DNA of 64,000 nucleotides from the human T2T-CHM13v2.0 reference genome, Homo sapiens (GCF_009914755.1 NC_060940.1); one strand, 5' to 3'. Counted from the first letter of the stretch, positions 10,773 through 13,700 are shown. Translations and numbers: made by a program. Notes: generated by a model not told the origin, from the letters alone.

Positions 10773-13700
10773 GTGAGCGAGCGCCCTATAGCTGGGCCGG
10801 CGGCGCAGCCGCTGCTGAGTCACGGGCACGCTGGAGATGGCGCGGCGGCCGCGGACGAGCTGGGGACGCAGATAGGGCGGCTGGTGACCCTTACTTGTTC
10901 ACGAGTCCAGACCAGCGTCGGCTCACGATGCCGGAGTCATCCAGCCTCCCGCCCCTGCCCCAGCCGCCGCCACTTCGGGGCCTTGGCTGCCTGTTCCGTT
11001 TAGCCTGTTTGTTTTACAGAGTTCCCTTTCCGAGTTCGTTTTGCCGAAGTTCGTTTTACCGAAATCTGGATGATGCTGGGGGTCGGGAGATGCGGCTAGC
11101 TTTAGTTGGCCCTGACCCCCGCCCCCAAGCTCGTGTCTGTCACTTCGTTTTGAAGTTCGTTTTGCCGAAATCTGGATAAAGCCAGGGTGGGGCGGAGGCG
11201 GGCTAGCTTCATTTGGCTCTGACCCCCGACCCCAGGGTCGTATCTTCATTTGACTCAGTTGATTTCACTGAAATGTGAATAATGCAAAGTGACTGATGTC
11301 TGGATGATGCTTGGGTGGGGCGGAGTGGGCTAGCTCCATTTAGCCCCGCCCCAAGGCTATGTTTATCTTCGTTTGACCGAATTGGTTTCACCGAAATATG
11401 GATGATGCTGGAGTGGGGTGCAGGGTGGCTACCTTCATTTGGCCCTGACCCCGGCCCCAGGGTCGTATTTATGTTTATCCTCGTTTAACCAAGTTGATTT
11501 CACCGAAATGTGAATGATGCAAAGTGAATGATGCCTGGATGATGCCGGAGTGGGGCTAAGGGGGCTAGCTTCAATTTGGCCCTGACCCCCGCCCCCAGGG
11601 TCGTATCTATGTTTGTCTTCATTTGACCGAGTTCCTGTTATCGAAATCTGGATGATGCTCAGCACCCCGAAGGGCTTCCTGGATCAGCTGTGGTTTTAAC
11701 CCATTAACATTTTTAAATGGGAATCTGATTAGACTCCGTCTCAAAAAAAAAAATGTATATATAGATGAGGTTTCAGTTTTTATTTAAAACACGAGGCCGA
11801 GCATGGTGGCTCACGCCTGTAATCCCAGCATTTTGGGAGGCTGAGACGGGAGGATCGCTTGAGCCCAGGAGTTCGAAGCTGTCGTGAGCTGAGATCATGC
11901 CACTGCACTCCAGCCTGGGTGAGAGTGAGACCCTGTCTCCAAAAAAAAAAAAAAAAAAAAGACCAGTTGGAGATTTGAACCTTAATGAATAAGGTAAGGA
12001 AACATCTCAAAGGTCATCTAGTAAGCTCATTGTTTGAGGGTGTACATCCACCACCTCTTGGCTTTGGAGTTGTTCATCCTGCTAGACCTGTTGCACATGT
12101 TTCTAAGTTTTACAAGATTGTTAGTTGAATTGGCAAATGTAAAGACCCAGTTCAGAGCATCTGCTATAAAGCCATTCTTGCAAAGTGTCCATTCTCCCGC
12201 AACTTGCTGTGTGCAACTAATTCAGCTGGATCCGGAAAAGGACCCTCAGCCTAGGATATGTTGGCTTTTCTACAGGAGAGGAATTACTATTTTTCTCCCA
12301 TGGGATACTAGGGGCAGGCACTATTTCAGTGCTATTCAAGCACTTGTTAAGAGCACTAGCTTTCAGGCTAGCCTGGTAGCACATGCCTATAATCCTAGCA
12401 CTTTCGGAGACCGAGGTGGGCGGATTGCTTGAGCTTAGGAGTTCAAGACCAGCCTGGGCCACATGGTGAAACCCCTTCTCTACCAAAAAAAAAACAAAAA
12501 AACAAAAATTAGCCAGGTGTGGTGGTGTGTGCCTGGAGTCTCAGCTACTCGGGAGGCTGAAGTGAGAAGATCACTTGAATCTGAGAGGTAGAGGCTGCAG
12601 TGAGCGAAGATCACACCACTGGACTCCAGCCTGGGCAACAGAGTGAGACCCTGTCTCAAAAACAAAGAAGAGCACTAGCTTCTCTATCAAGTAAGTGTAG
12701 GGTTTTAAAAAACACAAATGGACTTTGGTAGACCAAAACAAAAGCCCACGAGTATGGAAGTTTCCCTTGAAGTTGGAAATTCAATTTCCCCCTTACCCCC
12801 CCACCCCCAAAAATGAGAGGCACCAGAAATACAGAATCATTAACTTTGTTTGATTCAAACCCCAAACCTAGTAACCATTTATAGATTTGCCAACTATATG
12901 CTAAGAAAAATACTACAGTTAAACCAATGTGAAACTAGCAGCTGTTAAGAAAATGTAATTAACAGTGGCTTTTGTCTTTCCTTAGCATAGGGTTGTATTT
13001 CTGTGTCACACATTTGCTAGTGGTTAAAAAATACTTCTTGAAGACCAAGGAAATGAGAGTGTGTAAGTGATGCACTTGTAACTCCTTAGGAGAAAATGAC
13101 TGAGGAGGTTTGAAATGGAGATAAAAATTCTCAAGTAAAATCTTTCTCATTCAGTCCTCCTCTATTCATTCATTTATTTTGAGACAGGGTCTGCCGAGGC
13201 TGGGGTGCAGTAGCACAATCTCAGCTCACTGTAGCTAGCCTCAAACTCGACCTTCTGAGCTCAAGTAGTCCCTGCACCTCAGTCCCCCAGCCCCAAGTAG
13301 CTGAGACTACAGGCACATCCCCACTATGCCCGGCTAAGTTTTGTATTTTTTGTAGACAGGGTTTCGCCATGTTGCCCACGCTGCCCATGCTCGTCTCAAA
13401 CTCCTGAGCTCAAGTGATCTGCCCACCTCAGCCTCTCGAAGTGCTGGGATTACAGGCATGAGCCACTGCATCCGGCCTACTCCATCATCTTTATTCCAAA
13501 AAAGATTTCAGGATGGGAAAAGTTTAAAGGTGAAGGAAAGCTGCAAAGAAAAAGTAAAGTTAAATGTGGTAGCAAAGCTTAAATGTGTTTTCAGACTAAG
13601 ATCTGGGAAGCTTTCATTTTCTTCATTTTAAATTTCTGTGAAGTTTGAAATTTTCCCAAGCATGTATTACTTCACAGTCAATGTTAGGTAAAAACTGCCA

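What the first reader, a model, noticed from the sequence alone, without database searches (positions are those of the whole stretch)
11025..11660. Higher-order tandem array of GC-rich hairpins in PSMD7 intron 1
Seen: five complete units plus a sixth start, periods 106/103/123/112/138 nt, resembling no interspersed repeat I recognise. Each unit is CCGAAAT-(x)TGGATGATGC, a G-rich arm, GGCTAGC-loop-TTGGCC, a C-rich arm, then an AT-rich linker. The arms pair in each unit although the sequences differ: unit 1 GGGGGTCGG(11078-86)/CTGACCCCC(11112-20) plus GGCTAGC/GTTGGCC; unit 3 GGGGCG/CGCCCC plus GGGCTA/TAGCCC (11317-11352); unit 4 GGGGT-g-CAGGG/CCCTGACCCC (11415-11452). Several pairs are G-U on the sense strand. 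Units 3 and 5 share an extra 25-nt TGAATRATGCAAAGTGA.TGATG block, giving a dimeric (about 235 nt) higher-order period. Inference: this could be a structured-RNA array in the nascent PSMD7 transcript (small-RNA precursors, pausing or splicing control) or a multimerised cis-element beside the CpG island. It could also be a neutral decayed minisatellite.
Basis: partly seen in the sequence, partly recalled or inferred. Interest (0 to 1): 0.8.

Follow-up and report, generated by a model that had tools for sequence, protein, structure and literature searches.

The report
Decayed tandem repeat in PSMD7 intron
About 650 bases just inside the first intron of the human proteasome gene PSMD7 are an old tandem duplication of a GC-rich unit of about 110 bases, found nowhere else in this genome; its hairpin potential looks like a by-product of its make-up, not a selected RNA structure, so it is ordinary.

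Summary
There are five full units and a partial sixth, with periods 106/103/123/112/138, and nested sub-duplications of 15 and 25 nt. Units are 81-89% identical. I found no other copy in the T2T genome and no Rfam family.

The structured-RNA reading fails its own tests:
- Per-unit fold z-scores are modest and similar on both strands.
- With arm composition kept, only unit 3 stands out clearly.
- The RNAalifold covariation term is +0.8, and pair counts do not beat shuffles.
- The unit consensus folds better than every present unit, and the loss matches random mutation.

The higher-order period rests only on the insert shared by units 3 and 5.

The array keeps CpG-island composition (o/e 0.71). 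It holds 8 of the window's 28 GC-box-like sites and lies under a RefSeq enhancer feature.

Best reading: a decayed, locus-specific minisatellite in the 3' shoulder of the promoter CpG island. At most it acts as generic GC-box DNA. Orthologues, population copy number and expression data could not be examined. Low interest.

The parts
11007..11063 (+). 15-nt sub-repeat (GTTCGTTTTACCGAA type), four copies, forming the 5' edge of the array. The same 15-mer recurs once or twice in the linker of each unit.
   Evidence: TRF period 15, 4.0 copies, 77% matches. Family D5 has 7 copies.
11046..11151 (+). Unit 1 (106 nt). GC-rich inverted-repeat core at 11077-11127.
   Evidence: Model match 89.7 bits. Fold z -2.0 on +, -2.6 on -. 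Arm-wise shuffles 49/1000 on +, 46/1000 on -.
11152..11254 (+). Unit 2 (103 nt). Core at 11183-11234. The GATGATGC block is changed to GATAAAGC.
   Evidence: 87.6 bits. Fold z -0.3 on +, -1.2 on -. Arm-wise shuffles 182/1000 on +, 128/1000 on -.
11255..11377 (+). Unit 3 (123 nt). It carries a 25-nt internal duplication (about 11267-11291) of the CCGAAAT-CTGGATGATGC segment and a deletion that removes CTGAC from the C-rich arm. Core at 11311-11354.
   Evidence: Model positions 3-32 match 11257-11286 and positions 12-108 match 11291-11377, so positions 12-32 are present twice. Alignment A1. Fold z -2.65 on +, -2.5 on -. Arm-wise shuffles 5/1000 on +, 4/1000 on -.
11378..11489 (+). Unit 4 (112 nt). 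Core at 11409-11459. It has no exact 7-mer GC-box core left.
   Evidence: 93 bits. Fold z -1.5 on +, -0.9 on -. Motif census.
11490..11627 (+). Unit 5 (138 nt). It has the same 25-nt internal duplication (about 11502-11526) as unit 3. Core at 11546-11597.
   Evidence: 81.6 bits. Alignment A1. Fold z -1.3 on +, +0.3 on -.
11628..11695 (+). Partial, more diverged sixth unit. It is clear up to GATGATGC at 11658 and weak after that.
   Evidence: 26.7 bits, model positions 2-63 of 108. Alignment A1.
10598..10772 (+). Context: PSMD7 exon 1. The array starts 253 nt into intron 1, at about +428 to +1063 from the annotated transcript start.
   Evidence: Hub annotation given with the finding. Sequence read.
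10723..11612 (.). Context: a RefSeq 'enhancer' functional-element feature that covers most of the array.
   Evidence: Hub annotation only. The assay behind it is not stated and I could not check it.

Best explanation
This is an old, degenerate minisatellite made by local tandem duplication (replication slippage or unequal exchange); no other copy was found in this genome. Duplication happened at three nested scales: a 15-nt linker motif, a 25-nt internal block, and a unit of about 106-112 nt.

It lies in the 3' shoulder of the PSMD7 promoter CpG island, 253 nt into intron 1. The founding unit was an imperfect palindrome: a G-rich arm of GC/GT-box type and a C-rich GC-box arm around GGCTAGC...TTGGCC. 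Every copy therefore inherited some hairpin potential on both strands.

That potential is a by-product and has been decaying without constraint. It is not a selected RNA structure.

Shown here: the repeat anatomy, the absence of other copies, the lack of covariation, the strand symmetry, and the decay from the consensus.

Inferred: the array has stayed unmethylated as part of the island. Any activity it has is at the DNA level, as a cluster of Sp/KLF-type GC boxes adding to the promoter-proximal regulatory region. I put about 35-40% on a measurable cis effect. The rest of my belief in this reading is on a neutral passenger.
For: Tandem structure.

No other copy found:
- BLAST of the whole array and of unit 4 against the T2T genome finds only the array.
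- A 26-base core pattern with up to 3 mismatches gives 3 of 3 matches in the array.
- An 18-mer with up to 2 mismatches gives 5 array matches and 53 scattered single matches. The 7 of those 53 loci that I fetched share nothing beyond the seed.

Age: full units are 81-89% identical.

No RNA-structure signal:
- Covariation term +0.8.
- Paired cells 87.1% against 84.0 +/- 1.6 in shuffles, with 52/500 reaching it.
- Per-unit z-scores are similar on both strands.
- The + strand is more stable than the - strand by a mean of 7.2 kcal/mol. The shuffled sequences differ by 6.3 kcal/mol, so this is a composition effect (computed).
- The whole array gives z -3.15 on + and -4.63 on -.
- The consensus core folds at -38.3 kcal/mol. 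The units fold at -27.5 to -32.5, within what random mutation of the consensus gives: 78, 303, 115, 318, 485 of 500 simulations fold at least as well.
- No Rfam match in the array except mir-1234 on the antisense strand at 18.3 bits against a gathering score of 70, E = 5.9.

CpG-island context:
- CpG o/e 0.71 and GC 0.52 in the array, against 0.37 and 0.43 just after it.
- Consensus CpG positions are substituted 8/48, other positions 53/470.
- 8 of the 28 GC-box-like sites in the window, and all 3 exact ones, lie in the array.
- A RefSeq enhancer feature spans 10723-11612 (hub table).
Against: - The whole array folds better than dinucleotide shuffles (0 of 20 shuffles on either strand). Units 1 and 3 keep complementarity beyond arm composition. 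So a real inverted repeat exists, and the test cannot exclude weak selection for it.
- Five paralogous units give little power for covariation.
- The majority consensus may overstate how well the ancestral unit folded. The alignment of unit 3's C-rich arm is ambiguous (differ).
- GC boxes are themselves decaying. Exact 7-mer cores number 1, 1, 2, 0, 1 in units 1-5, which argues against strong selection on them too.
- The best-kept blocks (CTGGATGATGC, GGCTAGC) are not GC boxes and remain unexplained.
- No orthologue, population, chromatin or RNA data could be examined.
- No Dfam or RepeatMasker search was possible. The genome search scores only the best candidates, so an ancient transposon origin is not strictly excluded.
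Confidence: 0.7

Rival explanations
1. A selected, multimerised cis-regulatory module. Each unit would be a composite binding site: GC/GT boxes plus the well-kept CTGGATGATGC, GGCTAGC and TTTGGC blocks, and TTCNNNGAA in units 3-5. The array would act as a copy-number-dependent intronic enhancer of PSMD7.
For: - A RefSeq enhancer feature spans 10723-11612 (hub table).
- GC-box-like sites are enriched: 28 in the window against 8.48 +/- 2.99 expected, with 8 in the array.
- CpG-island composition is kept in an old repeat.
- Some non-GC blocks are the most conserved columns.
Against: - Enrichment inside a repeat is by descent, not independent.
- Exact GC-box cores are lost in unit 4 and halved in units 1, 2 and 5.
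- The motif names are recalled consensus strings, not tested binding.
- PSMD7 is absent from the held supplements of three genome-wide VNTR-expression papers, and no paper pairs PSMD7 with VNTR.
- The enhancer feature also covers 300 nt of non-repeat CpG island.
Confidence: 0.18
2. A structured-RNA array in the sense PSMD7 pre-mRNA. Each unit's hairpin would be a small-RNA precursor, or a pausing or splicing element.
For: - Each unit can form a GC-rich hairpin with some G-U pairs on the sense strand.
- The whole array gives z -3.15 on +.
- There is a precedent for small RNA from an intronic tandem repeat, the eNOS intron 4 27-nt repeat (PMC3734264; listing and start of abstract seen).
Against: - No covariation.
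- The antisense strand scores as well or better.
- Pairing registers differ between units.
- Decay from the consensus matches random mutation.
- Stems are short and interrupted.
- No Rfam miRNA or snoRNA match.
Confidence: 0.05
3. A remnant of an interspersed repeat or a known satellite family that was locally amplified.
For: Many minisatellites arise inside transposons (general knowledge, recalled). No Dfam search could be run here.
Against: No second copy of the unit was found in 3.1 Gb by BLAST or by three pattern searches, nor elsewhere in the window with a profile at E up to 10.
Confidence: 0.05

Closest known systems
Intronic or promoter-proximal minisatellites / VNTRs with large units (for example the IL1RN intron 2 86-bp repeat, recalled; genome-wide expression-linked VNTRs, PMC8024321, listing and start of abstract seen)
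   Same: Head-to-tail copies of a unit of tens to about 100 bp, unique to one locus, GC-rich, close to a transcription start, and carrying repeated factor-binding motifs.
   Different: - Copy-number variation, the defining property of a VNTR, could not be tested.
- The units are 11-19% diverged, which points to an array that is no longer turning over.
- PSMD7 is not named in the held supplements of three VNTR surveys.
GC-box (Sp/KLF) clusters of CpG-island promoters
   Same: CpG o/e 0.71 and GC 0.52 over 636 nt. GGGGCGGGG-type sites lie on both strands. The position is within about 1 kb downstream of the transcript start.
   Different: Here the sites are arranged by tandem duplication of one palindromic unit instead of scattered. 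Binding was not tested, and the GC-box consensus is recalled.
eNOS (NOS3) intron 4 27-nt repeat giving a 27-nt small RNA (PMC3734264; listing and start of abstract)
   Same: A tandem repeat inside an intron of the host gene, proposed to act through RNA.
   Different: The unit here is four times longer. I had no small-RNA evidence, and no structural signal beyond composition and descent.
Box C/D snoRNA arrays (SNORD115/116 type, recalled)
   Same: Each unit carries a UGAUG-containing block followed about 45 nt later by CUGA.
   Different: - The box is AUGAUGC, not RUGAUGA.
- It is broken in unit 2, and CUGA is deleted from the arm of unit 3.
- I saw no terminal stem beyond two G-C pairs (read).
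- The span is shorter than in known human snoRNAs.
- No snoRNA family matches at E up to 10.

Membership tests
Minisatellite / VNTR-type tandem repeat | Head-to-tail copies of a unit longer than about 10 bp | tested here: met
   Five full units and a partial sixth, periods 103-138. TRF detects part of it.
Minisatellite / VNTR-type tandem repeat | Confined to one locus, not dispersed | tested here: met
   Only the array itself was found in the T2T genome. Other pattern matches are unrelated single sites.
Minisatellite / VNTR-type tandem repeat | Copy number varies between individuals | not testable with these tools
   Only one human genome was on hand. PSMD7 is absent from the held supplements of three VNTR surveys.
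Higher-order (dimeric) repeat | Units one higher-order period apart are more alike than neighbours | tested here: not met
   u2-u4 81.2% and u4-u6 75.8%, against neighbours at 81.7-88.4%. Only u3-u5 (87.7%) share the 25-nt insert.
Conserved structured RNA | Compensatory base changes that keep a common structure | tested here: not met
   Covariation term +0.8. 45-52 of 500 shuffles and 131-141 of 500 shuffles reach the observed measures. Power is low with 5 paralogues.
Conserved structured RNA | Stability beyond composition, specific to the transcribed strand | tested here: not met
   Per-unit z -0.3 to -2.65 on + and +0.3 to -2.6 on -. Whole array -3.15 on + and -4.63 on -. With arm-wise shuffles, unit 3 stands out clearly on both strands, and units 1 (both strands) and 4 (- strand) only marginally at 38-49 of 1000.
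Known RNA family (Rfam 15), including miRNA precursors and snoRNAs | Match at or near the family's gathering score | tested here: not met
   The only match in the array is mir-1234 on the antisense strand, 18.3 bits against 70, E = 5.9.
Interspersed repeat (transposon-derived) | Many dispersed copies in the genome, or a Dfam model match | tested here: inconclusive
   No dispersed copies were found.
CpG island | GC of at least 0.5 and CpG o/e of at least 0.6 over 200 bp or more (criteria recalled) | tested here: met
   Array: GC 0.52, o/e 0.71, 30 CpG in 636 nt. It is continuous with the island at 10400-11024 (o/e 0.86-0.91).
G-quadruplex array | Four runs of G3+ with loops of 1-7 nt | tested here: not met
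   None in the array on either strand. The only one in 10300-11900 is at 10331-10358.

The most novel reading that the evidence does not exclude
The sense-strand hairpins of the array are used in the nascent PSMD7 transcript, as unit-phased small-RNA precursors or as a polymerase pausing or splicing checkpoint just after exon 1. This would resemble the small RNA reported from the eNOS intron 4 repeat. Constraint would be too weak, or too recent, to show among five paralogous copies.
Probability: 0.04. Interest if true: 0.55.

Novelty: new member of a known kind. Interest (0 to 1): 0.1.

Why it matters
As read here it matters little. It is one more degenerate minisatellite in a CpG-island shoulder. 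It is worth knowing mainly so that its hairpins are not mistaken for RNA elements, and so that it is handled with care in mapping and variant calling around the PSMD7 promoter. If copy number turned out to vary and to tune PSMD7 expression, it would be a modest addition to expression-linked VNTRs at an essential proteasome gene.

Tried and rejected
- Box C/D snoRNA-like units: rejected. The box is imperfect, it is broken in unit 2, CUGA is lost from the arm of unit 3, I saw no terminal stem, and there is no Rfam snoRNA match.
- miRNA precursor: only a chance-level antisense mir-1234 match.
- G-quadruplex array: no canonical motif in the array.
- Dimeric higher-order repeat: not borne out by pairwise identities.
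- Dispersed family: the whole-array and single-unit BLAST and three pattern searches found none. The reversed-pattern control contains CpG, so it is biased low. The 17 matches outside the array have unrelated, non-G-rich spacers.
The profile was used on the window only.
- Literature:
  - 'PSMD7' + 'tandem repeat' gave 22 papers, 15 listed. None is about a PSMD7 repeat, judging by titles and abstract starts.
  - 'PSMD7' + 'VNTR' gave 0 papers.
  - 'PSMD7' / 'antioxidant response element' / 'first intron' gave nothing on this locus in the 10 papers listed.
- Named transcription-factor motifs beyond GC boxes (TTCNNNGAA, TGATGCAA-type, TTGGC half-site, GGGTCA half-site) were noticed by eye from recalled consensus strings. 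I did not pursue them, because short motifs match cheaply.

Full report
**What is there.** The stretch 11007-11695 of the window lies 253 nt into PSMD7 intron 1 (hub annotation: exon 1 ends at 10772). It is a tandem array.
- The GAAAT anchor recurs at 11061, 11167, 11270, 11393, 11505 and 11643.
- MAFFT aligns five full units and a partial sixth.
- A sequence-only covariance model built from that alignment finds seven matches in the 64-kb window, all inside 11047-11695. They are five units at 57-93 bits, a partial sixth at 26.7 bits, and an internal fragment.
- Tandem Repeats Finder recognises only the two best-preserved units (11046-11245, period 107, 1.9 copies) and a 15-nt sub-repeat in four copies at 11007-11063.

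**Nested duplication.**
- The 15-mer of the 5' edge recurs in the linker of the units (family D5, 7 copies).
- The 'extra 25-nt block' of units 3 and 5 is an internal duplication of the unit's own CCGAAAT-CTGGATGATGC segment. In unit 3, model positions 12-32 are matched twice.
- Duplication therefore acted at about 15, 25 and 106-112 nt. This is the signature of slippage or unequal exchange.
- Full units are 81-89% identical pairwise.
- A dimeric higher-order period is not borne out. u2-u4 is 81.2% and u4-u6 is 75.8%, no better than neighbours. Only u3-u5 (87.7%) share the insert.
- With recalled neutral rates of 1-2 x 10^-9 per site per year, 11-19% divergence suggests tens of millions of years. 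This is a rough inference that I could not check, because no other mammalian genome was on hand.

**Not a dispersed element.**
- BLAST of the whole array, and of unit 4 alone at E up to 10, against the window's own 3.1-Gb genome finds only the array.
- A 26-base core pattern with up to 3 mismatches matches three times, all in the array.
- An 18-mer with up to 2 mismatches matches 5 times in the array and 53 times as scattered single sites. The seven of those loci that I fetched share nothing with the array beyond the seed.
- A two-block gapped pattern matches 4 units and 17 other places, whose spacers are unrelated.

- *Folding energy per unit.* Against dinucleotide shuffles, z is -2.0, -0.3, -2.65, -1.5, -1.3 on the sense strand and -2.6, -1.2, -2.5, -0.9, +0.3 on the antisense strand.
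- *Folding energy of the whole array.* z is -3.15 on sense and -4.63 on antisense, with 0 of 20 shuffles on either strand. There is more self-complementarity than in shuffled sequence, but it is at least as strong on the strand that is not part of the PSMD7 transcript.
- *Strand difference.* The sense strand is more stable in absolute terms by a mean of 7.2 kcal/mol. Its shuffles are more stable by 6.3, so this is a G+U composition effect.
- *Composition of the arms.* When each arm is shuffled within itself, keeping a G-rich arm opposite a C-rich arm, only unit 3 stands out clearly (5/1000 on +, 4/1000 on -). Unit 1 is marginal (49 and 46 of 1000). Units 2, 4 and 5 are mostly unremarkable (114-198 on +, 38-216 on -).
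- *Register.* The predicted pairing register differs between units.
- *Covariation.* RNAalifold gives a consensus energy of -13.9 kcal/mol with a covariation term of +0.8. For that structure, 87.1% of cells pair against 84.0 +/- 1.6 in shuffles (52/500 reach it), and the covariation score is reached by 45/500.
- *Decay.* The majority consensus of the five cores folds at -38.3 kcal/mol. Every present unit is weaker (-27.5 to -32.5). Mutating the consensus at random by each unit's number of substitutions gives folds at least as good in 78, 303, 115, 318 and 485 of 500 trials. Hairpin strength has been lost about as fast as chance predicts.
- *Known families.* The only Rfam match in the array at E up to 10 is mir-1234 on the antisense strand, at 18.3 bits against a gathering score of 70.
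- *Caveats.* Five paralogues give little power. The consensus may flatter the ancestor. Unit 3's C-rich arm can be aligned in two ways.

**What the unit looks like as DNA.**
- The two arms are GC/GT-box-like sequences on opposite strands.
- GGGGCGGGG with up to one mismatch occurs 28 times in the window (expected 8.48 +/- 2.99). Eight of these are in the array, including all three exact matches, which lie on the minus strand of units 1, 3 and 5.
- These sites are copies by descent and are themselves eroding. Exact 7-mer cores number 1, 1, 2, 0, 1 in units 1-5.
- The array keeps CpG-island composition (GC 0.52, CpG o/e 0.71). It is continuous with the island upstream (o/e 0.86-0.91), and o/e falls to 0.37 right after the array.
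- Consensus CpG positions are substituted 8/48 against 53/470 elsewhere. There is no strong methylation-driven decay, which I take as a sign that the array has sat inside the unmethylated island (inference).
- There is no canonical G-quadruplex motif in the array.
- The hub table lists a RefSeq enhancer feature at 10723-11612, which covers most of the array. Its assay is not given.

**Best reading and rivals.** I read the array as a fossil minisatellite in the island's 3' shoulder. Its hairpin potential descends from one palindromic founder unit (confidence about 0.7). Within that reading, a measurable DNA-level contribution as a GC-box cluster is possible, at roughly one chance in three. The rivals are:
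- a selected composite enhancer module (0.18);
- a sense-strand RNA element (0.05);
- a transposon remnant (0.05).

**Literature.**
- No paper in the library pairs PSMD7 with VNTR.
- The 15 listed of 22 papers with 'PSMD7' and 'tandem repeat' are not about this locus, judged from titles and abstract starts.
- PSMD7 does not occur in the held supplements of three genome-wide VNTR studies (7, 6 and 1 files). Supplements not held as text could still list it.

**Verdict.** This is an ordinary, previously undescribed member of a familiar kind.

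Noticed in passing
window 10813-10822 (+): TGCTGAGTCA is an exact MARE/ARE-type core (TGACTCAGC on the minus strand; consensus recalled). 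It lies 41 nt into PSMD7 intron 1. It is the only match in the window, against 0.22 expected, and 19 of 100 shuffles have at least one. NFE2L1 is described as an established factor for proteasome genes in passages of PMC11104393. Binding here was not tested.
   Followed up: partly
window 10331-10358 (+): This is the only canonical G-quadruplex motif (four runs of G3+) in 10300-11900. It lies about 250 nt upstream of the annotated PSMD7 transcript start.
   Followed up: no
window 10699, 10929, 11542: ATGCCGGAG occurs three times: at the PSMD7 start codon, in early intron 1, and in unit 5 of the array. Also, 10931-10944 is 86% complementary to 11535-11548 (inverted pair I1). This may be chance or a trace of the array's origin.
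   Followed up: no
window 11796-11960 and 11728-11755: An Alu element follows the array. It gives an SRP-RNA match of 38.1 bits that was cut at the edge of the stretch searched, and it has an A20 tail at 11941-11960. Just before it is a short sequence ending in an A-run that looks like a truncated Alu tail.
   Followed up: no
window 11066-11076, 11094-11100 and the equivalent places in each unit: The best-kept blocks of the unit are CTGGATGATGC and GGCTAGC, not the G-rich and C-rich arms (conservation lines). No explanation was found for this. With five copies it may be chance.
   Followed up: partly
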